Virus record (IMG/VR): IMGVR_UViG_3300014720_002669
DNA from: a virus
Strand: one strand, 5' to 3'
Length of the DNA stretch: 64,000 nucleotides
Positions within the stretch are counted from its first letter, which is position 1. Each line of letters opens with the position of its first letter. Under the pieces are notes generated by a model. That model was not told where the DNA came from. It ran no database searches and was given only the letters and a program-made list of their open reading frames with translations. Shown one piece after another: positions 40,169 to 62,756 of this stretch. Made by a program: the position numbers and the translations under genes.

Positions 40169-42175
40169 ATGACATGTAACATTGCTTGGGTACAACCAAA
40201 TTTTCAACAAGGACCAAAAGAGTTCAACGCCTACTATCTGCCTTATTCTGCAGGCGTGATATGGAGTTACAGCCTGGCAGACCCGGCCATACGTGAACGC
40301 TTCAAAGTTACTGAATTTTTGTGGCGCAGAGAAGCCATCGAAGAAACAGCTGAAAGATTGTGTAAAAATGACATGGTGGCATTCAGCACCTATGTTTGGA
40401 ATCATCGCTACAACTATGAACTTGCTCGGCAGATCAAAGCACGAAATCCCAACACAGTGATTTTGTTTGGTGGACCTGAGCCTGCTATCACAGACGTCAA
40501 CATTTTCCGGGACAATCCTTTCATGGATTTGATCATTTGTTACGAAGGTGAAATCACATTCAAACGTGTGTTGGAAGTGTTTGACACCAAGAACTGGGAA
40601 AGTGTAGCCGGCCTGCTGATCAACAGAAATGGCGAAGCTGTAAAAACTGAAGAAGCCAAGCGTATTGAAAGTCTTGAAGAAGTTGAAAGTCCATACTTGT
40701 CTGGTATATTTGATCAACTCATAGCTGATCATCCTGAGGTAACCTGGCAAGGCACCCTGGAAACCAATCGTGGCTGCCCGTATCAATGTACCTTTTGTGA
40801 CTGGGGCAGTCTGACCTACAACAAAGTCAAGAAGTTCAAACTGGAACGTGTGTTTGCTGAACTGGAATGGATGGCTCAGCACAACTTTGATTGGATCAGT
40901 ATAACTGATGCCAATTTTGGCATGTACCCCGAACGTGACGGCATGATTGCAGACAAGATCATTGAGTGTCAAGAAAAATATGGATCACCAAGAACATTCT
41001 CAGTGGCCTGGGCCAAGAATCAAAAGAAAGAAGTCATAGACATTGTGAAGAAACTGTTGGATGCCAAGGGATTCAATCAAGGACTCACACTCAGCGTACA
41101 GAGTTTGGACTTGGATGTGCTGGAAAACATTCGTCGCAAGAACATGGAAATGAACAAGCTCAACGAAGTATTTGAGCTGTGCGACCAACGCAACATTCCT
41201 GCATACACAGAATTGATCCTGGGCCTGCCTGGTGAGACCCTGGAAACATGGAAAAAAAACTTCTATGCCTTGTACGAATTAAATCAGCACACCGGCATCA
41301 CAACATTCCAAGCACAGTTGTTGGAAAATGCCGAAATGAACCTGTTACAGAAGAAACTGTTCAAGATCACCAGCCAACCTGTAACAGACTACTTTGCTGG
41401 CAGCTACAGTGTGGAACACATTGAAGAAAGCATTGATGTCATCACAGGCACCAAAGACATGCCTACTCCAGTGATGCTGGATGCACAGATATTTGCCTGG
41501 TTCCAGACCACGGTTCACATCAACGGCTTTGCTACTTTGGTCGCACGTTTTATCAACAAGTACCTGAACATCAGTTACAACAACTACTACGAAGAATTGT
41601 TTGCACACTTCATGACCAATGAATGGGTAAAGAAAGAAGAATCTGAAGCCCGTATGTACTTCAACAATTGGATGATGACCGGACGCATTAACCATCCCAA
41701 GATTGGTGTGGAAATACACGGCTGGAACATCATTCACAGAACCAGCATGAACATGCACCAGGAAAATCAAGTGGAACAGTTGTATGATCATCTGGAACAG
41801 TTTCTAGAACGCTACAACTTGCCCCCAGATCTGTTGGCCAGCTTGATGAAACTGCAAAGAAGTTACTACATCAAGTATGATGACAGAAATCAGTACCCCA
41901 TGAACTTGCAGTTGGAATACAACATCTGGGAATATTTGAGCTTCAGTAAGCCTCTAGAAAAAATTCCCACTGTGTATCGATTGGATTTTCCTGAAGACAA
42001 GACCATGAGTTTTAATAGATTTTTGGAATTGTTTTACTTTGCAAGACGCAGAAACTTTGGCAAGGCCACGGTGGATCGCGTCAGTGGCGGAGACTCCAAA
42101 GGCGCTCGTCGAGGCGCAGGTGCTGCCAAAGCACAAGGCAGTTTTTCAGTGAAGAAAAAACAACTAGTGGCGTGA
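40169..42175 (+). CDS. B12-binding radical SAM enzyme
   Basis: STYVWN, FGGP, EGE, ETNRGCPYQCTFCDW, LILGLPGET. Confidence 0.9.
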   Translation: MTCNIAWVQPNFQQGPKEFNAYYLPYSAGVIWSYSLADPAIRERFKVTEFLWRREAIEETAERLCKNDMVAFSTYVWNHRYNYELARQIKARNPNTVILFGGPEPAITDVNIFRDNPFMDLIICYEGEITFKRVLEVFDTKNWESVAGLLINRNGEAVKTEEAKRIESLEEVESPYLSGIFDQLIADHPEVTWQGTLETNRGCPYQCTFCDWGSLTYNKVKKFKLERVFAELEWMAQHNFDWISITDANFGMYPERDGMIADKIIECQEKYGSPRTFSVAWAKNQKKEVIDIVKKLLDAKGFNQGLTLSVQSLDLDVLENIRRKNMEMNKLNEVFELCDQRNIPAYTELILGLPGETLETWKKNFYALYELNQHTGITTFQAQLLENAEMNLLQKKLFKITSQPVTDYFAGSYSVEHIEESIDVITGTKDMPTPVMLDAQIFAWFQTTVHINGFATLVARFINKYLNISYNNYYEELFAHFMTNEWVKKEESEARMYFNNWMMTGRINHPKIGVEIHGWNIIHRTSMNMHQENQVEQLYDHLEQFLERYNLPPDLLASLMKLQRSYYIKYDDRNQYPMNLQLEYNIWEYLSFSKPLEKIPTVYRLDFPEDKTMSFNRFLELFYFARRRNFGKATVDRVSGGDSKGARRGAGAAKAQGSFSVKKKQLVA

Positions 42176-52057: not shown

Positions 52058-54100
52058 ATGTCAATTACTGATTCCAAAAAAATAATACCCATACAAACCA
52101 CACAATATCCGACAGTGTCTCCGGTTGCGGTCAGCGACGACACGCATGTAAAACTTTCTGAAATGTTTGTGGCTGCACAAAAAAGCCCAACTGAAAGTCG
52201 CAAGCAAAAAAATCTCACTGAAGTTGCAATACATCACGAAACAATTAGATCAAATCGTGTGGCCCTGATTGTCATGCCTGAATGGAGCACTATTTCACCA
52301 CCATATGGCATTGCTAGAATGGCAGCACTGAGCAAGCATGCAGGCTTTGCTACCAAAACATGGGATATAAATGCTGTTTGCAAAAAACAAGCGTCCGCAG
52401 AGTTGCTGCAGTATTGTAGCAGTTATGAAGATTGGAAATGGCAAGACCCTCATTACAGCAAAATATTGCACCCCATGCTTGAGCCAATGCTGTTGCCATA
52501 CATAGATGAGATTTTGTCTTGGCAGCCCACTGTATTGGGATTCAGTTGCTGGTACACCAATGATGCATGCACCATGTGGATGATTGAACAATTCAAATGT
52601 CGATCACCGGATTTAAAAATCATCATTGGTGGCCCCAATATCACGCAAATGAACAACAATGGCAGTGTTGGCTCTGATGGTGGCAGACCCCACAACCCTG
52701 CAATCGATCATTATGTGTCTGGCGAAGGGGAGATGTTGTGGTTACAGGTGTTGGAAAACATAGAAAACCCCACAGAAGATTTGCCAAAATTTTTAGTTCA
52801 AAGCAAAGATGCACGTATAGATCTAGACAGTATGCCACCGGCTGACTACAGTGACTTTGATATTTCGTTGTATGATTCTCGCGGCATCACCAGTGAGTTC
52901 AGCCGAGGTTGCATTGCCAACTGTGTGTACTGCAATGAAACAGTGTTCTGGAAATATCGTGCCAGGCAAGGATCTCGTGTGTTGGAAGAAATTGAAATTG
53001 CCTATCGCAATCAACACATACAAAGTGTAACGTTCATAGACAGTTTGTTGAACGGAAATCTTCGCGAGCTACGAGCATTTGCCGAAGGGTTAATGGAACA
53101 AAACATACGCATCAATTGGAGTGGGTACAGTCGAATTGATGGCAAGATGGATCGAGACTTTTGGGCATTGTTGAAACGATCAGGTGCCACGGGGTTTGCG
53201 TTTGGAGTAGAATCTGGATCACAGCGAGTGCTGGACTTGATGAAAAAGAACTGTCGAGTAGAATGGATAGAACAAAATTTCAACGACATGGCTGAAATTG
53301 ATTTTTGCAATCAATTTGCCACTTGGTTCACTGGTTTCCCTGGGGAAGAACTAACTGATGTTGCACAAACACAAACCTTGATGTGGCGACTGCGAAACTC
53401 AGGCATGGGAGCTCAAAGTGCTGGCACCTGCGGACTGGGACATAACACACCCTTGGATTTGGAACGAGAACGATTTGGTGTGAGACGCATTGACTGGACC
53501 CACGGATGGGCCACACAGGACCTGCGCAACACTGTGTTTCACAGATTCGTAAGATTCAAACTTACCAATATACTGCTGGAACAATTTAGATTGCACAGTA
53601 CCAAAAGATCATACCGTCCGCATTGTCAAGAACCTGATTTAAAGAACCAATATCAAATTGAATCAGACCCTGCAAATTGGGCAGACTCAATTCCTTGGGA
53701 AAAAGAATTTGATTACGAGATCATCAAAGTGGATATCAATCCCATGGCCAATAGTTTGATCAACGAAATCTGGCCCTTGTTGCGAGTGTTTTGGCTGGCC
53801 ATGGGTGCTTACCGGTTCCGTGTGGAGTTTGATCCAGACCGAGATCTTAGAGAATTTGGCACAAGGCGCTATCCAAAATATCCCGATCATTGGGCAGCAG
53901 GAACAAAATTTGAATTTCGTGCTGTGTACAATTTTGAAATCAATGATCAGGGTGTGTGGAATGCAGATTTTGATATCAGCTTGCAAGGCGAAGCCTATGA
54001 TGACAACCCAGCTGCCAATCATCACAATCAGGGTCGATCATTGAACTTTGATTTCAAATGGGTTCATACAGATGTTTGGACCAGACCAATAACCACTTGA
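52058..54100 (+). CDS. B12-binding radical SAM enzyme
   Basis: IIGGP, GEGE, SRGCIANCVYC, GVESGS, GFPGE. Confidence 0.9.
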   Translation: MSITDSKKIIPIQTTQYPTVSPVAVSDDTHVKLSEMFVAAQKSPTESRKQKNLTEVAIHHETIRSNRVALIVMPEWSTISPPYGIARMAALSKHAGFATKTWDINAVCKKQASAELLQYCSSYEDWKWQDPHYSKILHPMLEPMLLPYIDEILSWQPTVLGFSCWYTNDACTMWMIEQFKCRSPDLKIIIGGPNITQMNNNGSVGSDGGRPHNPAIDHYVSGEGEMLWLQVLENIENPTEDLPKFLVQSKDARIDLDSMPPADYSDFDISLYDSRGITSEFSRGCIANCVYCNETVFWKYRARQGSRVLEEIEIAYRNQHIQSVTFIDSLLNGNLRELRAFAEGLMEQNIRINWSGYSRIDGKMDRDFWALLKRSGATGFAFGVESGSQRVLDLMKKNCRVEWIEQNFNDMAEIDFCNQFATWFTGFPGEELTDVAQTQTLMWRLRNSGMGAQSAGTCGLGHNTPLDLERERFGVRRIDWTHGWATQDLRNTVFHRFVRFKLTNILLEQFRLHSTKRSYRPHCQEPDLKNQYQIESDPANWADSIPWEKEFDYEIIKVDINPMANSLINEIWPLLRVFWLAMGAYRFRVEFDPDRDLREFGTRRYPKYPDHWAAGTKFEFRAVYNFEINDQGVWNADFDISLQGEAYDDNPAANHHNQGRSLNFDFKWVHTDVWTRPITT

Positions 54101-55725: not shown

Positions 55726-56109
55726 ATGCGTAAATTATTATTTGGTTTGATATTAATATCTGGTTCTGTACTAGCACAAGATGTGTATGTGGTCAGCATC
55801 CAGCCCAGATACGTCACTGTACAACAGCAACAATGCCGTACTGTTGAGGTGTATCAAGACAACAGCAATGTGGGCACTGTGATTGGTGCTCTGGCTGGTG
55901 GGGTTATTGGACATCACATGGGGTCGGGCAATGTAGGCACCATACTGGGCACTGGCATAGGTGCCACAGTTGGCAACAAGGTCGGTCGAGACCAAGGCAC
56001 AGTGGTCAACAAACAAGTTTGTGACACAGTGCCAGTCACTGTACAACAAGGTGAAACTGTTACCTTCAACTATCGAGGACGAGTGTTCACACAAGTTTTT
56101 GGTAATTAA
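55726..56109 (+). CDS. secreted glycine-zipper 2TM protein (YcfJ-like)
   Basis: Signal peptide; GTVIGALAGGVIGHHMGSG. Confidence 0.8.
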   Translation: MRKLLFGLILISGSVLAQDVYVVSIQPRYVTVQQQQCRTVEVYQDNSNVGTVIGALAGGVIGHHMGSGNVGTILGTGIGATVGNKVGRDQGTVVNKQVCDTVPVTVQQGETVTFNYRGRVFTQVFGN

Positions 56110-56174
56110 AGTTATTGCTGTCTAAAGCTATTGACATTTTTGTTGAAATAAAATACAATAAATATTGTATCATC

Positions 56175-56440
56175 GTATGAAGTGATAAGAAAGGTGTTCA
56201 AGACGCGAGTTCGAATCTCGCCACCTCCGGAGAGCATTTATAAAAGTGTTTTGCGGTGGGGGTGATATTGGAAATCGATTGGGCAATCAGTATTTGACCA
56301 GACGATGCGGCAAGGTAGAAGCCGTTAGGGCAGGGGATTCCCGGCCGAAGAAGCAAAACAAGTATCTGCTAACGACGATACATATCTTTTGGCCGCCAAC
56401 GGTTGAAAGCGGGGCAGTTATGCCTTGTCACCCAAAATAG
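56175..56440 (+). ncRNA. ssrA: circularly permuted (two-piece) tmRNA; outer ends approximate
   Basis: T-arm and CACCTCC (56205-56228) precede GGGGGTG (56258-56264) with G3-U70; hairpin intervening segment; tag ANDDTYLLAANG* at 56368-56406. Confidence 0.85.
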
Positions 56441-56441
56441 C

Positions 56442-56468
56442 AATAGGCTCTTCGGAGCCTATTTTCTT
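56442..56468 (+). terminator. intrinsic terminator after the tmRNA
   Basis: AATAGGCTC TTCG GAGCCTATT TTCTT. Confidence 0.85.
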
Positions 56469-57085: not shown

Positions 57086-57114
57086 TTGACTTTTATATCA
57101 ACGGCATATATAAT
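57086..57114 (+). promoter_or_regulatory. sigma70 promoter for leader 1
   Basis: TTGACT-17-TATAAT. Confidence 0.85.
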
Positions 57115-57304: not shown

Positions 57305-57397
57305 AGACACAAGTTAGAAAAAACAGCACAGTCGATTGAGACTAGCTGAGGTTCATTAAAAAGATATCTTTCATATAGCCCTGTGCAAGTCGCAGGG

Positions 57398-57630
57398 TAC
57401 TATATGAAAACACATTGGGTTACCAACTCCGGTAGGTTGCCTGACACAGAACTATTTCCTAGTGACGGCTAGGCTGTGTCAGGCGTACACGAAAGCAGAC
57501 TCGCAAGAGCCTAGCACGCCGGACCCAGTTGGCCTGTAATGTGGTTGATAGACAAGTCCGTGGACGGCACGGTAGGGCAGGTTCAAAACTGCGCTCTCTA
57601 TCAAACATCCCAATGTAGTTTCATATAGTA
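57398..57630 (+). ncRNA. stem-bracketed structured RNA
   Basis: About 22-nt terminal inverted repeat; internal GCCTGACACAG/CTGTGTCAGGC and other hairpins. Confidence 0.6.
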
Positions 57631-57634
57631 ATTT

Positions 57635-57709
57635 GCACGATTCGTCTATCGGTTAGGACGCTGCCCTTTCAAGGCGGAAAGACGAGTTCGATTCTCGTAT
57701 CGTGTACCA
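57635..57709 (+). tRNA. tRNA-Glu(TTC)
   Basis: Cloverleaf; CCA. Confidence 0.9.
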
Positions 57710-57731
57710 AGTTTGTTCAACAGGAGTCAGT

Positions 57732-58079
57732 ATGCAATATTCAGTTTGGCGCATAGATCTGTATGAAGATGAGCGATTGGAAGTAATATCCCGTCATTGC
57801 TATCATCATTGGGTGAATGAAATACGCCCTCAAAGCAAATGCTTGCCTGACGATGATGAATTGGAAGAATTTGAACGTTGGCAGTACGAAACATGGGGTG
57901 CCTTGAAACAGCCCGGATTGAATCCCAATTCAGCCCACGGTTTGGTGGATGACCGCTGGATGGACTTTCCTTCAGAAACAGCGGCTGACAAATTTTTTGA
58001 TTTCTATCGCGACAAAGAGTGGGATCATTGGGCAGAAAAAAACAACAGACGTGACCGTATGTTTGTTTGTTCTCGGTAA
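57732..58079 (+). CDS. hypothetical protein within the tRNA array
   Basis: AGGAG RBS; MQYSVW start. Confidence 0.7.
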   Translation: MQYSVWRIDLYEDERLEVISRHCYHHWVNEIRPQSKCLPDDDELEEFERWQYETWGALKQPGLNPNSAHGLVDDRWMDFPSETAADKFFDFYRDKEWDHWAEKNNRRDRMFVCSR

Positions 58080-58161
58080 AGTTTTTGTAAGAGCATATCG
58101 CCTGAGCACTTCTCCCAGCAATGGGACACTAGGTTCTGCAACCTTGCTCTTACCCCTTTTT

Positions 58162-58247
58162 GGAGACGTGGCAGAGTGGTTGATTGCACGAGACTGTAAA
58201 TCTCGCCCCTAAAAAGCGCGGTGGTTCGAATCCATCCGTCTCCACCA
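58162..58247 (+). tRNA. tRNA-Tyr(GTA)
   Basis: Cloverleaf with variable arm; CCA. Confidence 0.9.
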
Positions 58248-58251
58248 TATG

Positions 58252-58404
58252 TTCTTATAGTCAAGCATCGATAAGGTATCGTGACAGGACGCTGTCACTA
58301 TTCGGGTCCAAGCGGCCGGCGACGGATCCTGACACAACTGCATCGGCTTTGACTGGGAAGCACCCAACGTCTAAATTTGCGTTCTCGGTGCTTGACTATA
58401 AGAA
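58252..58404 (+). ncRNA. stem-bracketed structured RNA between tRNA-Tyr and tRNA-Asp
   Basis: TTCTTATAGTCAAGCATCGA / TCGGTGCTTGACTATAAGAA; internal GTGACAG/CTGTCAC. Confidence 0.6.
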
Positions 58405-58406
58405 TT

Positions 58407-58481
58407 GGTCTCAAAGTGTTCATGGACGCACGTATGCCTGTCACGCATAAAGAAGGGGATCGTTACCCCTTGAGACCGCCA
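58407..58481 (+). tRNA. tRNA-Asp(GTC)
   Basis: Cloverleaf; atypical T-loop ATCGTTA. Confidence 0.85.
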
Positions 58482-58489
58482 GATTTTTT

Positions 58490-58566
58490 GCCCCGGTGAC
58501 GGAATTGGTATACGTGTTGGTTTTAGAAGCCAAATTTTAGGAGTTCGAGTCTCCTCTGGGGCACCA
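58490..58566 (+). tRNA. tRNA-Leu(TAG), short variable region
   Basis: TTGGT tt TAG aa GCCAA. Confidence 0.85.
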
Positions 58567-58570
58567 AGTT

Positions 58571-58773
58571 TTGTTGTGGTGTTAGCAAGAAAAAGACACT
58601 CTACTATGGATTCTTCGAAGGTCCCGGTAGTGTAAAGCACAGGCGGCGTGATTCCGTGCAAAAACTAAGTAATCAATCTGTGGTTGAGTATCCCAAGTAA
58701 CGTACCGAGTCCCGCATGCAAATCCGGTAAAGGGTGAATGGTGCCAATAACGATGGTGGCACTACTGCAACAA
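58571..58773 (+). ncRNA. stem-bracketed structured RNA between tRNA-Leu and tRNA-Arg
   Basis: TTGTTGTGGT/ACTGCAACAA closing stem; internal GTGCCA/TGGCAC and a UUCG hairpin. Confidence 0.5.
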
Positions 58774-58784
58774 ATTCAATTCAT

Positions 58785-58859
58785 GCCCCTGTCGTTCAAC
58801 GGATAGGATACCATGCTACGAACGTGGGGACGGAGGTTCGATTCCTTCCAGGGGTACCA
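58785..58859 (+). tRNA. tRNA-Arg(ACG)
   Basis: Cloverleaf; CCA. Confidence 0.9.
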
Positions 58860-58935
58860 TATAAAAACACATTGTATTTACAGAGTAGCGAGGTCTGTCT
58901 TAAGGGTTGCTCCCGTCAATGTGTTTTTATATGGT
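58856..58935 (+). repeat. 19-bp perfect inverted repeat linking tRNA-Arg and tRNA-His
   Basis: ACCATATAAAAACACATTG / CAATGTGTTTTTATATGGT. Confidence 0.85.
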
Positions 58936-59007
58936 GCAGTTAGTTTAGTGGTAAAACCGCGGGTTGTGATTCCGCTGTCACGAGTTCGATTCTCGTACTG
59001 TACCCCA
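58933..59007 (+). tRNA. tRNA-His(GTG)
   Basis: G-1:C73; CCA. Confidence 0.9.
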
Positions 59008-59010
59008 TGT

Positions 59011-59210
59011 ATATTGATTTCGGCGTGTGAAAAACTCATTGACTATGGGCCCAACTGCCAGGGACACTACTTGCTATCCAGAGCCGCTGACCGGGCGAGA
59101 GCCGCGTGGACTGCTAGTCACAGTCGAAGTCATGTTGCTGGAAGGACGACAGCGTAGCCTTTTTGCTGTGTTGTGTACCTTTAAACGCAGGGCAGTGCCG
59201 AATTCAATAT
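59011..59210 (+). ncRNA. stem-bracketed structured RNA between tRNA-His and tRNA-fMet
   Basis: ATATTGATTTCGGC / GCCGAATTCAATAT; GC-rich interior. Confidence 0.55.
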
Positions 59211-59223
59211 AAATAAAACACGA

Positions 59224-59298
59224 CGCAGAGTGGAGAAGTAGTATCTCACCAGGCTCATAACCTGGGGACCGGCGGTGCGAATCCGTCCTCTGCAACCA
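59224..59298 (+). tRNA. initiator-like tRNA-fMet(CAT)
   Basis: C1-A72 mismatch; loop CT CAT AA. Confidence 0.85.
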
Positions 59299-59344
59299 AA
59301 TTCGCCAGTGTGGTATAAATACCACACTAGGTTTTCAAAGCAGG

Positions 59345-59373
59345 TTGACCTGCAATGGTAAATACACTATAAT
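59345..59373 (+). promoter_or_regulatory. sigma70 promoter for leader 2, with a TAAATA inside the spacer
   Basis: TTGACC-17-TATAAT. Confidence 0.85.
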
Positions 59374-59380
59374 AGGAACT

Positions 59381-59491
59381 ATGATGAAACAACAATTCTG
59401 TTCAATGTCCAAGCCCACAACACTCCAGGCATCCGTCTGGCTGTTGGCCAATGGCTCAGCGAACAGCATTCCAGGAGAACCGGGGTTCTGA
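59381..59491 (+). CDS. putative attenuator leader peptide 2 (36 aa, MMKQQFCSMSKPTTLQASVWLLANGSANSIPGEPGF)
   Basis: Starts at about +1; its last codons CCGGGGTTCT are complementary to terminator arm AGAACCCTGG. Confidence 0.6.
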   Translation: MMKQQFCSMSKPTTLQASVWLLANGSANSIPGEPGF

Positions 59492-59515
59492 TTAGACTAT
59501 ATTCGTATATCTACC

Positions 59516-59553
59516 AAGAACCCTGGAACTAGACACTCCAGGGTTTTTCTTTT
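59516..59553 (+). terminator. intrinsic terminator / attenuator 2
   Basis: AAGAACCCTGGA actagacac TCCAGGGTTTTT CTTTT. Confidence 0.85.
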
Positions 59554-59654
59554 AGTGCAATGGCAACGCGAGCCGGTATCACTCAAAACTACAAATGTGG
59601 GCGGCCCGGAGGATGGGAAGCTAGTGGTGAAAACGCTAGTGGTAAAATTCCGGA

Positions 59655-59721
59655 GTATCAAAGCATATTCGATGTGCCCATAGCACATAGAAACATCCGA
59701 AACGTGAATATGCTTTGATAC
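59655..59721 (+). repeat. 16-bp perfect inverted repeat element
   Basis: GTATCAAAGCATATTC / GAATATGCTTTGATAC. Confidence 0.8.
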
Positions 59722-59752
59722 ACACACTGGCAACAGTGTGTCTATAATAGAT

Positions 59753-59826
59753 TCCGGTGTAGTATAATGGCAGTGCGGCGGTCTCCAAAACCGCTAGTGG
59801 GAGTTCGATTCTCTCCATCGGAGCCA
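59753..59826 (+). tRNA. tRNA-Trp(CCA)
   Basis: Cloverleaf; CCA. Confidence 0.9.
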
Positions 59827-59834
59827 TAAAATTT

Positions 59835-59909
59835 GGGCTGTTAGTGATAATGGGAGCACGAGGCCTTTGCACGGCTTAGGTGGGAGTTCGATTCTCCCAC
59901 GGTCCACCA
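59835..59909 (+). tRNA. tRNA-Ala(TGC)
   Basis: G3-U70; CCA. Confidence 0.9.
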
Positions 59910-59931
59910 AACATGATATAAGTATTCACAA

Positions 59932-60021
59932 GGAACGTGGGCCGGATGGTAAGGCACGGGATTGCTAATCCCGCGGTGGTGACGAGCCGCTGATAGGGTT
60001 CGACTCCCTAACGTTCCGCCA
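59932..60021 (+). tRNA. tRNA-Ser(GCT)
   Basis: Long variable arm; G73. Confidence 0.9.
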
Positions 60022-60029
60022 AAAAATAT

Positions 60030-60105
60030 TCCCTAGTAGCACAGCGGTAGTTGCGCTTCACTGTTAATGAAGATGTCGTTCGTTCGATCCGAACCTAGGG
60101 AGCCA
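60030..60105 (+). tRNA. tRNA-Asn(GTT)
   Basis: Cloverleaf; CCA. Confidence 0.9.
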
Positions 60106-60122
60106 AATACAAAGGAAACAAG

Positions 60123-60290
60123 ATGTCTAACACATTTAGAACTACAAACGATCCAATGAAACATCACAGTGGCAAGCCCAGGCTGGGTCCACTGAATGTG
60201 GCACAACTGACCAAGATGTTGGAAAGTGCAAGACCAAAAAATCGCTCAAAGATTCAACGTGCAATAGATCAAAAACTCAAAAAGTCTTGA
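60123..60290 (+). CDS. small basic protein (55 aa, MSNTFRTTNDPMKHHSGKPRLGPLN...)
   Basis: AAGGA RBS; read from the sequence. Confidence 0.7.
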   Translation: MSNTFRTTNDPMKHHSGKPRLGPLNVAQLTKMLESARPKNRSKIQRAIDQKLKKS

Positions 60291-60298
60291 ACACACAC

Positions 60299-60372
60299 GC
60301 CCTACTAGTATAATGGCATTACACTGGTTTTGTAATCCTGTGATGGCAGTTCGATTCTGTCGTGGGGCACCA
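60299..60372 (+). tRNA. tRNA-Thr(TGT), weak anticodon stem
   Basis: Cloverleaf; two U-U mismatches. Confidence 0.75.
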
Positions 60373-60424
60373 ATTTTTTACCAAGGAGATCTGTCATGAA
60401 TAGTGACAAGAGTCACAAACCTAT

Positions 60425-60501
60425 GGGCCGATAGTTTAACGGCTAAAACATCCGGCTTTTACCCGGTAAGAGTCAGGGTTCGAATCCCTGTCGGCCCACC
60501 A
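60425..60501 (+). tRNA. tRNA-Lys(TTT)
   Basis: CCGG ct TTT ac CCGG; CCA. Confidence 0.9.
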
Positions 60502-60568
60502 TATGAAAACACACTAATTGTCCCACAGAGGCCATTTCTAATATCTGAATAGTGTGTTTCCGTATGGT
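60498..60568 (+). repeat. imperfect inverted repeat linking tRNA-Lys and tRNA-Met
   Basis: ACCATATGAAAACACACTA / TAGTGTGTTTCCGTATGGT. Confidence 0.8.
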
Positions 60569-60640
60569 AGTGTAGCATAATGGTAGTGCAGCACCTTCAT
60601 ACGGTGTCCAGTGAGAGTTCGACTCCCTCCATTACCACCA
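60566..60640 (+). tRNA. tRNA-Met(CAT)
   Basis: GCACC tt CAT ac GGTGT. Confidence 0.85.
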
Positions 60641-60799: not shown

Positions 60800-60845
60800 A
60801 ACCACGTAGACAAACAGTGATGTTTGTTGTATAATTACTATATAC

Positions 60846-61388: not shown

Positions 61389-61480
61389 GGAAGATGATGC
61401 AGGTGGGATGGTCCGCCGACTGGCCTTGAAAACCAGGTTCTCTTAACAGGGATGGGGTTCGACTCCTCCGTCTTCCGCCA
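61389..61480 (+). tRNA. tRNA-Ser(TGA) with an 8/4 fold
   Basis: 8-bp acceptor GGAAGATG/CGTCTTCC, 4-bp T-stem, 5-bp D-stem. Confidence 0.8.
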
Positions 61481-62191: not shown

Positions 62192-62267
62192 CTCTGTGTT
62201 GCGTAATCAGGTAGCGCACTGGCATGGGGTGCCAGCGGTCGAGGTTCAAATCCTCGTACAGAGACCA
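62192..62267 (+). tRNA. tRNA-Pro(GGG)
   Basis: CTGGC at GGG gt GCCAG. Confidence 0.85.
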
Positions 62268-62288
62268 CGTATAACTAAGAAAGATAAT

Positions 62289-62756
62289 ATGAAAAAACTA
62301 GACATTGATCAAGTGGCAGAATTTATTCGGGCTCAAACACCTGAAACTCGCATCTATCTAGGCTGTGATTCAGAACGTTTGCGCCTTGATGGACACTGGT
62401 ACGCTGACTATGTGTTGGCCATTGTGGTACACATCAACGGCAACAACGGGTGCAAGATCTTTGGTGAAGTACAGCGTGAGCCTGTGTGGGATCAAAAGCA
62501 ATCAAAGCCAGCCATGCGGCTAATGACCGAAGTGTACAAGGTATCAGAATTGTACTTGCGACTGGCCGAAGTGCTGGAAGGGCGTGATGTTGAAGTTCAC
62601 CTTGACATCAGTCCAGACCAAATGCACGGATCAAGTTGTGTGATCTCACAGGCCATAGGCTACATCAAAGGCACATGCAACGTGATTCCTTTTGTGAAGC
62701 CACATGCGTTTGCTGCCAGTTATGCTGCCGACCGATTCAAAGGACTGGCAGCATAG
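62289..62756 (+). CDS. RNase H-like YkuK-family protein
   Basis: IYLGCDS, RLMTEV, EVHLDI, KPHAFAASYAAD. Confidence 0.85.
   Translation: MKKLDIDQVAEFIRAQTPETRIYLGCDSERLRLDGHWYADYVLAIVVHINGNNGCKIFGEVQREPVWDQKQSKPAMRLMTEVYKVSELYLRLAEVLEGRDVEVHLDISPDQMHGSSCVISQAIGYIKGTCNVIPFVKPHAFAASYAADRFKGLAA

What the first reader, a model, noticed from the sequence alone, without database searches (positions are those of the whole stretch)
57398..60568. Family of inverted-repeat elements sharing ATATRAAAACACA arms and carrying unrelated inserts, butted against tRNAs
Seen: elements at 57398-57630, 58856-58935 and 60498-60568 share arm sequence but enclose unrelated interiors of about 190, 42 and 33 nt. In two cases the stem pairs the upstream tRNA's ACCA with TGGT spanning the 5' end of the next tRNA. 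Inference: either a MITE-like cassette family or standardised processing stems (RNase III-like) that gate tRNA maturation and release cargo RNAs.
Basis: partly seen in the sequence, partly recalled or inferred. Interest (0 to 1): 0.7.

Follow-up and report, generated by a model that had tools for sequence, protein, structure and literature searches.

The report
Clamp-stem RNA hairpins in phage tRNA operons
The three inverted repeats are copies of a widespread, uncatalogued RNA hairpin found almost only in viruses of bacteria: a roughly 20-base-pair stem that starts on the CCA end of a tRNA (mostly Lys, Glu and Gln) and encloses interchangeable small folded RNAs whose job is not yet known.

Summary
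The elements at 57398-57630, 58856-58935 and 60498-60568 share arms and have unrelated interiors. Two of them pair the ACCA of tRNA-Arg or tRNA-Lys with the UGG(U) that begins the next tRNA.

They belong to a large phage-restricted family. A pattern requiring both arms gave at least 120 IMG/VR and at least 120 metagenome stretches, against one stretch in 596 Gb of prokaryote genomes. The family has no Rfam 15 match, and the arm sequence is in no paper of the searchable library. This scan has already reported the same family on at least eight other genomes.

New here:
- In a sample collected without reference to arm sequence, such stems follow 56% of tRNA-Lys(UUU), 44% of tRNA-Glu(UUC) and 20% of tRNA-Gln(UUG) genes, and at most 7% of any other tRNA.
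- The arms covary widely while the helix stays about 20 bp long.
- Orientation relative to the tRNAs is fixed (64:0), and non-Watson-Crick positions favour sense-strand G·U about 2:1.
- Stems occur with almost no interior, and interiors are swapped between near-identical flanks.
- Most window interiors, including the 189-nt one, are themselves conserved structured RNAs.

A MITE reading is disfavoured. The best reading is an RNA-level clamp and processing helix, probably cut by a host double-strand RNase, but cleavage is not shown. A cultured cyanophage, BUCT-ZZ01, carries diverged copies.

The parts
57398..57630 (+). Element 1: clamp helix (arms 57398-57419 and 57609-57630, ACU variant because no CCA-ending RNA lies upstream) closing a 189-nt structured RNA of a conserved class.
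   Evidence: I2. Fold z = -7.3. Syntenic homologs in L050, L075 and L077 and in 17 loci by blastn. The 10-sequence consensus structure has 53 pairs, 94% of cells paired against 37-41% when partners are slid, and 31 pairs with compensatory changes. No Rfam match at E<=1 or E<=5.
57371..57398 (+). Small hairpin CCCUG...CAGGG just upstream of element 1, plus an upstream copy of UUUCAUAUAG that could pair with the 5' arm instead of the 3' arm.
   Evidence: Read directly from the sequence. The hairpin is conserved in position in L050, L075 and L077. The alternative pairing was not tested.
57635..57709 (+). tRNA-Glu(UUC), 5 nt after element 1.
   Evidence: In other phages the element-1 class RNA follows tRNA-Glu rather than preceding it.
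58245..58408 (+). Diverged clamp after tRNA-Tyr. CCA (58245-58247) pairs with UGG (58406-58408, the start of tRNA-Asp), then a 16-bp perfect helix (58252-58267 with 58389-58404). The interior is a conserved RNA class.
   Evidence: (I1). Interior homologs in 28 loci.
58785..58859 (+). tRNA-Arg(ACG), whose ACCA forms the base of element 2.
58856..58935 (+). Element 2: perfect 19-bp clamp with a 42-nt interior made of two small hairpins. The 3' UGG runs into tRNA-His (58934-59007).
   Evidence: I3. Fold z = -6.5. The interior class has 8 members in other phage contigs, with compensatory changes in both hairpins.
59007..59214 (+). Diverged clamp (ATATTGA-type arms) starting on the last A of tRNA-His CCA, with a 172-nt interior of a conserved class.
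   Evidence: (I8). Interior homologs in 17 loci.
59655..59721 (+). 16-bp hairpin with unrelated arms. Its interior is homologous to the interior of canonical clamps in other phages, so the same cargo sits in a different stem here.
   Evidence: I7. blastn matches to L103, L276 and L291 at clamp positions.
60425..60501 (+). tRNA-Lys(UUU), whose ACCA forms the base of element 3.
60498..60568 (+). Element 3: 19-bp clamp with the family's A·C mismatch and a G-C compensatory pair, and a 33-nt interior with no relative found. The 3' UGG runs into tRNA-Met(CAT) (60566-60640).
   Evidence: I5. Fold z = -4.3. The tRNA-Lys, clamp, tRNA-Met order recurs in about 27 loci, with a different interior in almost every one.

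Best explanation
The elements are RNA-level modules of the phage's polycistronic tRNA transcripts.

Anatomy: a helix of about 20 bp has a 5' strand that begins with the (A)CCA 3' end of the preceding tRNA, mostly Lys(UUU), Glu(UUC) or Gln(UUG). Its 3' strand ends in UGG(U), which often supplies the first bases of the next tRNA. This helix closes an exchangeable insert. The insert ranges from a bare loop to a 200-nt structured RNA, and many inserts are conserved RNA families themselves.

Shown by comparison: the helix is selected as RNA on the tRNA-sense strand, it is the constant part, and the module is restricted to phages.

Inferred mechanism: the two-turn helix acts as a standard clamp and processing site. 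A double-strand-specific endonuclease, most likely the host's RNase III since the phages encode none, cuts it. Exonucleases then trim the upstream tRNA back to CCA, RNase P frees the downstream tRNA, and the insert is left as a stem-capped, nuclease-resistant small RNA. What the inserts do is unknown.
For: (1) Precise junction with tRNAs. Of 137 copies in 119 IMG/VR loci, 86 start exactly on the CCA of an ARAGORN tRNA and 42 end 1-2 nt before the next tRNA.

(2) Pairing is conserved through sequence change.
- Position 16 of the stem varies freely but stays paired: AT 28, CG 15, GC 15, GT 7, TA 6 of 90.
- In a sample collected through a neighbouring protein rather than through the arms, 77 of 1586 tRNAs are followed by a stem with at least 16 of 17 positions paired starting on CCA, where fewer than 1 is expected by chance. 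These represent 67 different arm pairs.

(3) Strand specificity.
- Orientation relative to the tRNAs is 64:0.
- With Watson-Crick-only detection, non-Watson-Crick cells are G·U 83 against A·C 42. Excluding the two hot-spot positions they are 49 against 22.

(4) Helix length is held at a median of 20 bp with an interquartile range of 19-22. From my own knowledge, this matches the roughly two turns RNase III needs.

(5) The stem is the constant unit. Copies exist with only 5-13 nt between the arms. About 27 tRNA-Lys to tRNA-Met junctions carry the stem with different interiors. Interiors differ between flanks that are 93-99% identical.

(6) The inserts are real RNAs. The element-1 class shows 31 compensatory pairs. 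The element-2 class has 8 members with compensatory changes. Four of the five window interiors have homologs in 7-28 loci.

(7) The elements lie inside transcription units. No terminator-like site or U-tract follows the stems.

(8) The module is phage-restricted: at least 120 IMG/VR stretches against 1 in 596 Gb of prokaryote genomes. That single hit is a 1.5-kb contig holding 9 tRNAs.
Against: - No RNA ends or cleavage products were seen; nothing here shows that the helix is cut at all.
- None of 12 large element-bearing contigs encodes RNase III, so the enzyme would have to be the host's, and the hosts are unknown.
- RNase III needs little sequence, yet one arm subtype is nearly invariant across more than 100 contigs and keeps an A·C mismatch in 64 of 90 copies. 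That hints at a more specific partner.
- Most tRNAs in these arrays are separated by spacers of 2-10 nt without any hairpin, so the hairpin is not needed for ordinary tRNA separation.
- The strong preference for Lys, Glu and Gln tRNAs is not explained by a generic processing role.
Confidence: 0.45

Rival explanations
1. Ribonucleoprotein scaffold, working like Y RNAs. The conserved stem, with its kept A·C mismatch and U·G wobble, is the docking site for a protein, either phage-encoded or from the host. The variable insert is the effector or tether module. On this view the hairpin is a stable RNP rather than a cut site.
For: - One arm subtype is conserved in sequence beyond what pairing requires, with the A·C mismatch kept in 64 of 90 copies and the U·G in 59 of 90.
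- The U·G within CAUU/AGUG persists across arm subtypes.
- A Ro60/TROVE-like protein (Pfam DUF2828 + DUF7788) lies beside the tRNA arrays of some of these phages. Its best fold matches are 9kop, 9l5y (phage phiLo Ro60) and 1yvp.
- Phage Ro60 is known to bind phage-encoded Y-like RNAs (PMC12135203).
- T-loop-like motifs are enriched in the inserts: 5 observed against 0.36 expected. Bacterial Y RNAs mimic tRNA (PMC4201824).
Against: - The Ro-binding motif GNCGAAN0-1G occurs in 1 of 86 inserts against 2.4 expected, and is not in the stems.
- Rfam YrlA gives only sub-threshold hits (25 bits against a cut-off of 69), and these are not on the elements.
- The Ro60-like gene is in only 4 of 12 large contigs, 33 of 390 loci, and not in this window.
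- The structural model has low confidence (pLDDT 57).
- Arm sequences vary widely across the superfamily.
Confidence: 0.2
2. A device for protecting or timing the 3' end of particular tRNAs. By pairing the CCA of tRNA-Lys, tRNA-Glu and tRNA-Gln, the helix shields these precursors from 3' exonucleases or delays their maturation. That would raise or time the supply of the tRNAs the phage needs most, for example when host defence nucleases destroy the host's own copies.
For: - Stems follow 29 of 52 tRNA-Lys(UUU), 23 of 52 tRNA-Glu(UUC) and 11 of 55 tRNA-Gln(UUG) genes, against 14 of 1427 other tRNAs (odds ratio 66). The arm-selected set gives 65 of 80.
- ACCA·UGGU pairing is kept even when no tRNA follows.
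- Stems without cargo exist.
- Host tRNA-Lys is a documented target of the PARIS defence nuclease, and a phage tRNA-Lys rescues infection (PMC11464382). Phage tRNAs as an answer to anticodon nucleases are discussed in PMC10264068.
Against: - The counts are not corrected for shared ancestry. Arm subtype tracks the upstream tRNA (ATATAAAAAC-type arms follow Lys in 19 of 23), so part of the association is inheritance of a tRNA-plus-stem unit.
- In this window one canonical stem follows tRNA-Arg, and others follow Tyr and His.
- This reading does not explain why conserved structured inserts are carried.
- No insert mimics a Lys, Glu or Gln anticodon arm: 0 observed against 1.2 expected.
Confidence: 0.15
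3. A DNA-level mobile element (MITE-like) or recombination cassette. The arms are terminal inverted repeats, or crossover handles, acted on as DNA.
For: - The arms are near-perfect inverted repeats.
- The same interior class occurs behind different tRNAs and in different stems.
- Interiors differ between almost identical flanks.
- Some exchange by recombination within the conserved arms is therefore likely, as a way the family evolves.
Against: - No target-site duplication.
- No transposase or integrase is associated among the commonest neighbouring gene families.
- The orientation bias is absolute.
- The arms covary and tolerate G·U on the sense strand.
- The insertion point is always the tRNA CCA.
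- Copies within one genome do not share interiors, unlike MITE families.
Confidence: 0.06

Closest known systems
RNase III processing stems (rRNA operon stems enclosing 16S and 23S rRNA; phage T7 early-transcript sites such as R1.1). Recalled from my own knowledge, not tested here.
   Same: A long-range helix of about two turns, formed by sequences flanking a stable RNA inside a polycistronic stable-RNA transcript. tRNAs lie next to it, and it carries internal non-Watson-Crick positions.
   Different: Here the helix starts on the CCA of a tRNA. It is repeated several times per operon with different small inserts. One subtype is nearly sequence-invariant across many phages. It shows a preference for Lys, Glu and Gln tRNAs. 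Cleavage is unproven.
Phage T4 stable RNAs rnaC and rnaD (species 1 and 2) in the T4 tRNA cluster
   Same: Small structured RNAs of unknown function, co-located and co-oriented with phage tRNA genes (PMC12685909). rnaC has a T-arm-like hairpin, as do some inserts here.
   Different: T4 rnaC and rnaD have no 18-20-bp closing helix and no pairing with the preceding CCA. They share no sequence with this family.
Bacterial and phage Y RNAs (YrlA/YrlB, phiLo Yrl1/2) bound by Ro60
   Same: A stem formed by the 5' and 3' ends, plus variable or tRNA-like modules. There are several different copies per genome, and a Ro60-like gene lies near the arrays of some of these phages (PMC4201824; PMC12135203).
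   Different: The CGAA-type Ro-binding motif is absent. There is no YrlA match. Most element-bearing phages lack a Ro60-like gene.
MITEs and other inverted-repeat mobile elements
   Same: Short inverted terminal repeats around variable DNA, in many copies.
   Different: No target duplication, fixed orientation, covarying arms, interiors that are not shared, and placement strictly at tRNA ends.

Membership tests
RNase III processing stem | Continuous double-stranded helix of about 20 bp or more, flanking the RNA to be released | tested here: met
   Helix length from C74 has a median of 20 bp and an interquartile range of 19-22 in 69 distinct stems. In the window the helices are 19-22 bp.
RNase III processing stem | Staggered cleavage of both strands by RNase III, giving discrete products | not testable with these tools
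   No RNA end data are available.
RNase III processing stem | An RNase III available in the infected cell | tested here: inconclusive
   0 of 12 large element-bearing phage contigs match PF14622. The hosts are unknown. The control genomes mostly have it.
MITE / inverted-repeat transposon | Target-site duplication flanking the terminal repeats | tested here: not met
   The flanks are a tRNA 3' end on one side and a tRNA 5' end or unrelated sequence on the other. No direct repeat is present.
MITE / inverted-repeat transposon | Copies share interior sequence and insert in either orientation at many kinds of site | tested here: not met
   127 distinct interiors fall into 93 clusters. Orientation is 64:0. 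86 of 137 copies start on a tRNA CCA.
Y RNA (YrlA-like) | Ro-binding motif GNCGAAN0-1G / CGAA in a bulged terminal stem | tested here: not met
   1 of 86 inserts against 2.4 expected. None is in the stems. In the window the only instance is at 59123, inside the 59007-59214 element.
Y RNA (YrlA-like) | Match to Rfam RF02553 | tested here: not met
   No hit in the window at E<=1. In related loci there are only 24-26-bit hits against a cut-off of 69, and they lie over tRNAs.
Y RNA (YrlA-like) | Encoded next to a Ro60/TROVE gene | tested here: inconclusive
   A Ro60-like DUF2828/DUF7788 gene is present in 4 of 12 large contigs and 33 of 390 loci, and in none of this 64-kb window. The rest of this phage genome is not available.
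T4 rnaC/rnaD | Sequence or structural homology to T4 species 1 or 2 RNA | tested here: not met
   The folds of T4 rnaC and rnaD lack the long closing helix and the CCA pairing. They share only their position within a tRNA cluster.
Intrinsic terminator | GC-rich hairpin followed by a U-tract | tested here: not met
   The stems are AU-rich at the base and are followed by GGU or a tRNA. The terminator scan finds none at the elements.
Any Rfam 15 family | Covariance-model match at or near the gathering score | tested here: not met
   Nothing on the elements at E<=1 in the window, nor at E<=5 on three related loci.

The most novel reading that the evidence does not exclude
The clamp is a natural, standardised RNA display scaffold. 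Phages hang a fast-exchanging repertoire of small structured RNAs (aptamers, decoys or regulators aimed at host defence or RNA metabolism) on the 3' ends of the tRNAs that host anticodon nucleases attack most, namely Lys, Glu and Gln. Supply of those tRNAs and delivery of the counter-measure RNAs would then be coupled in one precursor.
Probability: 0.15. Interest if true: 0.85.

Novelty: new variant of a known kind. Interest (0 to 1): 0.62.

Why it matters
Phage tRNA arrays are usually read as lists of tRNA genes. This window, and hundreds of related contigs, show that the arrays also carry a modular system of small structured RNAs. These are held in one conserved helix that is welded to the CCA end of specific tRNAs. 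No RNA family database or paper I could search describes it.

If the helix is a processing site, it defines how giant phages mature long tRNA precursors. If it is a protein-binding or display scaffold, the exchangeable inserts are a large untapped set of phage effector RNAs.

The preference for Lys, Glu and Gln tRNAs links the module to the tRNAs at the centre of current work on tRNA-targeting defence. A cultured cyanophage with diverged copies makes the question testable at the bench.

Tried and rejected
- **Known RNA family.** Rfam 15 at E<=1 on the window and at E<=5 on three related loci gives nothing on the elements.
- **Literature.** No paper holds the arm sequence. Searches on phage tRNA clusters, hairpins and S-CRM01 found nothing relevant.
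- **Close cultured relative of the window.** Megablast against 50,697 phage records matches only tRNA-Pro.
- **Vibrio phage nt-1 as a carrier.** The hit was to tRNA-Lys only, and no clamp follows it.
- **The PF04308 (YkuK, RNase H-like) gene as the specific stem nuclease.**
  - For: it lies inside the arrays (window 62196-62756). It is present in 9 of 12 large contigs and folds as RNase H / PIWI / EndoV-like.
  - Against: nt-1 and Stenotrophomonas phage DLP_6 have the gene without clamps, and one complete 364-kb contig has a clamp without the gene. The link is therefore to tRNA arrays in general.
- **A-to-I editing at the A·C mismatch by the neighbouring deaminase.** The deaminase is a ComEB-like dCMP deaminase, not TadA-like.
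- **Inserts as anticodon-arm decoys.** No Lys, Glu or Gln anticodon-arm mimic was found: 0 against 1.2 expected, and any anticodon-like hairpin 28 against 25.
- **Inserts as antisense RNAs to genes in this window.** Only chance-level 12-15-nt matches were found.
- **Y RNA motif.** Not enriched.
- **The 189-nt insert as RNase P, 6S or SRP RNA.** I saw no resemblance by eye and there is no Rfam hit.
- **Whole-genome search.** No genome is held for this window.
- **Metagenome scan.** It shows abundance only. It does not distinguish DNA libraries from RNA libraries, so it gives no evidence of expression.

Full report
**What is in the window.**
- The window is part of a large phage-like contig. It encodes a family B DNA polymerase, a ClpB-like ATPase and radical SAM proteins.
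- No whole genome is held for it, and it has no close relative among 50,697 cultured-phage records.
- From 54.2 to 63.7 kb it carries 30 tRNA genes, all on the + strand, and a tmRNA at 56108-56465.
- The three inverted repeats of the finding are exactly where stated. Their shared motif is far above chance: 6 matches at one mismatch or fewer against 0.43 expected.
- Element 2 (58856-58935) starts on the ACCA of tRNA-Arg(ACG) and ends in the UGG that opens tRNA-His.
- Element 3 (60498-60568) does the same between tRNA-Lys(UUU) and tRNA-Met(CAT).
- Element 1 (57398-57630) has the same arms but begins ACU, because no CCA-ending RNA precedes it. It ends 5 nt before tRNA-Glu.
- All three fold much better than shuffled controls.
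- Two further spacers are diverged relatives: 58245-58408 after tRNA-Tyr and 59007-59214 after tRNA-His.

**The family.**
- Most of those loci show one architecture: tRNA 3' end with N73-CCA, then UAUAAAAACACAYU, a variable interior, AGUGUGUUUCUAUA, and UGG followed by the next tRNA or other sequence.
- In these loci plus the window I found 137 unique elements. Of these, 86 begin exactly on the CCA of an ARAGORN tRNA and 42 end 1-2 nt before the next tRNA.
- The same pattern gives a single stretch in 596 Gb of prokaryote species genomes. That stretch is a 1.5-kb contig with 9 tRNAs, binned into a Candidatus Planktophila MAG, and the element again follows tRNA-Lys(UUU).
- The module is therefore essentially restricted to phages.
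- Rfam 15 has nothing on it, and no paper in the searchable library contains the arm sequence.
- Notes from this scan show that the same family was already reported on at least eight other genomes and read in much the same way. I list those notes and treat them as leads, not as support.

**RNA or DNA?**
- In 90 distinct oriented copies, the stem runs from the CC of CCA for 18 pairs.
  - One position is an A·C mismatch in 64 of 90 copies (A-U in 18, G-C in 2).
  - One position is U·G in 59, C-G in 16 and U-A in 15.
  - The innermost position varies freely but stays paired.
- The arm-based search could have found copies in either orientation. All 64 asymmetric copies have the same orientation relative to the tRNAs.
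- To remove the bias of selecting by arm sequence, I collected 80 IMG/VR loci through a neighbouring protein, PF04308. For every one of their 1586 tRNAs I asked whether the last three bases start a long helix.
  - Seventy-seven tRNAs are followed by a stem with at least 16 of 17 positions paired, where fewer than one is expected by chance.
  - These stems have 67 different arm pairs. The outer half of the helix changes completely while pairing is kept, and a CAUU/AGUG core with the U·G wobble persists.
- With Watson-Crick-only detection, the remaining non-Watson-Crick cells are G·U 83 against A·C 42. Excluding the two hot-spot positions they are 49 against 22. This is what RNA pairing on the tRNA-sense strand predicts.
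- Helix length is constrained to a median of 20 bp, with an interquartile range of 19-22.
- Taken together, these points, the missing target duplication and the missing transposase argue against a MITE and for a transcribed RNA helix.

**Which tRNAs.**
- In the arm-independent sample the stems follow the following tRNAs:

| Upstream tRNA | Followed by a stem |
|---|---|
| tRNA-Lys(UUU) | 29 of 52 |
| tRNA-Glu(UUC) | 23 of 52 |
| tRNA-Gln(UUG) | 11 of 55 |
| All other tRNAs | 14 of 1427 |

- The Fisher odds ratio is 66, p about 1e-54. This is not corrected for shared ancestry.
- The arm-selected sample gives Lys 46, Gln 12 and Glu 7 of 80.
- Arm subtype tracks the tRNA: ATATAAAAAC-type arms follow Lys in 19 of 23 cases. 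Part of the signal is therefore inheritance of a tRNA-plus-stem unit.
- From my own knowledge, these three tRNAs share the modified 2-thiouridine wobble base and are favourite targets of anticodon nucleases. Host tRNA-Lys is cleaved by the PARIS defence system and rescued by a phage tRNA-Lys (PMC11464382).
- I regard this as the most interesting unexplained feature. A generic processing role does not account for it.

**Stem and insert.**
- The stem is the constant unit. Some copies have only 5-13 nt between the arms.
- The tRNA-Lys, clamp, tRNA-Met junction recurs in about 27 loci, with a different interior in nearly every one.
- Pairs of loci whose 75-nt flanks are 93-99% identical carry unrelated interiors, for example L025/L076, L015/L031 and L126/L152.
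- The 127 distinct interiors fall into 93 sequence clusters, and their length peaks at 45-60 nt.
- The interiors are nevertheless not junk.
  - The 189-nt interior of element 1 belongs to a class found in 17 loci, usually directly after tRNA-Glu.
  - Its consensus fold has 53 pairs. 94% of cells are paired against 37-41% in slid controls, and 31 pairs show compensatory changes.
  - The 42-nt interior of element 2 has 7 relatives with compensatory changes in both of its hairpins. One of them sits in a different arm subtype.
  - The interiors of 58245-58408 and 59007-59214 have relatives in 28 and 17 loci.
  - The hairpin at 59655-59721 carries, inside an unrelated stem, an interior that sits in canonical clamps elsewhere.
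  - Only element 3's interior has no relative.
- T-loop-like motifs are modestly enriched in the interiors: 5 against 0.36 expected.

**Search for a partner.**
- No RNase III is encoded in 12 large element-bearing contigs, six of which are rated complete.
- The protein family most often found beside the arrays is PF04308 (YkuK/DUF458).
  - In the window it lies at 62196-62756, inside the array.
  - It is highly conserved, with an intact acidic motif set.
  - It is an uncharacterised RNase H1-clade family (PMC3985635).
  - Its model resembles Argonaute PIWI, RNase H1 and EndoV.
  - It is present in 9 of 12 large contigs and in at least 590 IMG/VR stretches.
  - However, Vibrio phage nt-1 and Stenotrophomonas phage DLP_6 have it in their tRNA arrays without clamps, and one complete clamp-bearing contig lacks it.
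  - It is therefore a tRNA-array gene, not a clamp-specific one.
- A second neighbour, DUF2828 + DUF7788, models as a Ro60/TROVE protein at low confidence (pLDDT 57). Its top matches are 9kop, the phiLo phage Ro60 9l5y, and 1yvp.
  - This raises a Y-RNA-like reading.
  - The gene occurs in only 4 of 12 large contigs and not in this window.
  - The Ro-binding motif is not enriched.
- The nearby deaminase is a dCMP deaminase.

**Mechanism.**
- Shown: this is a phage-specific RNA helix of fixed length and orientation. It starts on a tRNA CCA, is maintained by compensatory evolution, and closes exchangeable and often conserved structured RNAs inside tRNA transcription units.
- Inferred: the helix is a clamp and processing site cut by a double-strand RNase of the host.
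  - After the cut, exonucleases finish the upstream CCA end and RNase P frees the downstream tRNA.
  - The insert survives as a stem-capped small RNA.
- I put this at about 0.45.
- A stable RNP scaffold (0.2) and a 3'-end protection or timing device for Lys, Glu and Gln tRNAs (0.15) remain open, and they are not mutually exclusive with the main reading.
- A DNA-level mobile element is unlikely (0.06), although recombination within the conserved arms probably explains how interiors are swapped.

**Comparison and novelty.**
- The nearest known things are RNase III processing stems of stable-RNA operons, the T4 stable RNAs rnaC and rnaD, and Y RNAs.
  - RNase III stems share the geometry, but there is no evidence of cleavage here.
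  - T4 rnaC and rnaD share the genomic niche and the unknown function, but lack the clamp (PMC12685909).
  - Y RNAs share the terminal stem plus modules, but the defining motif is absent here.
- I file the element as a new variant of a known kind, a stem-closed stable RNA or processing helix in a phage tRNA operon. It is not a member of any named family.
- The cultured cyanophage BUCT-ZZ01 carries diverged copies at the same tRNA-Lys to tRNA-Met junction, and another before tRNA-Tyr. This gives a laboratory system for the decisive end-mapping experiments.

Noticed in passing
window 56108-56465 (+): Phage-encoded tmRNA: Rfam beta_tmRNA at 100 bits (cut-off 84). It also matches the permuted tmRNA model at 77 bits, so it is probably a two-piece form.
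   Followed up: no
window 62196-62756 (+): PF04308 (YkuK/DUF458) RNase H-like gene embedded in the tRNA array; the true start is probably after tRNA-Pro, which ends at 62267. At least 590 IMG/VR homologs exist. It also sits in the tRNA arrays of cultured phages: DLP_6 directly after tRNA-Lys, BUCT-ZZ01, and nt-1. It is an uncharacterised nuclease tied to phage tRNA arrays.
   Followed up: partly
window 58567-58784 (+): The 218-nt spacer between tRNA-Leu(UAG) and tRNA-Arg(ACG) has blastn homologs in 54 of the fetched phage loci. It is probably another conserved non-coding RNA of these arrays and is not closed by the clamp.
   Followed up: no
window 61389-61476 (+): Sub-threshold tRNA-Sec-like match (35.8 bits against a cut-off of 47) directly after tRNA-Cys. 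Similar sub-threshold hits occur in related loci (L180, L193, L177).
   Followed up: no
L020:3513-4931 and 32 other loci; G004, G005, G009, G011: A 470-aa DUF2828 + DUF7788 protein next to the tRNA arrays and the PF04308 gene models as a Ro60/TROVE plus vWA protein. This would make it a phage Ro60 in freshwater giant phages. It is absent from this window.
   Followed up: partly
L205 (CAZQNP010000058.1, 1478 bp): The only prokaryote-genome hit for the two-arm pattern is a 1.5-kb contig with 9 tRNAs, binned into a Candidatus Planktophila MAG. It is either a mis-binned phage fragment or a hint that acI Actinobacteria are hosts.
   Followed up: no
window 57086-57114, 59345-59373, 59719-59748, 60287-60314, 60807-60835 (+): Five strong sigma-70-like promoters (10-11 of 12 matches) inside the tRNA array. 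The array is therefore split into several transcription units. In other loci a TTGACC...TATACT promoter directly follows the clamp's 3' arm (L001, L012, L021).
   Followed up: no
window 52058-54100 and 40169-42175 (+): Two large B12-binding radical SAM proteins. The first lies immediately upstream of the tRNA array and has homologs beside the arrays of 6-8 other loci.
   Followed up: no
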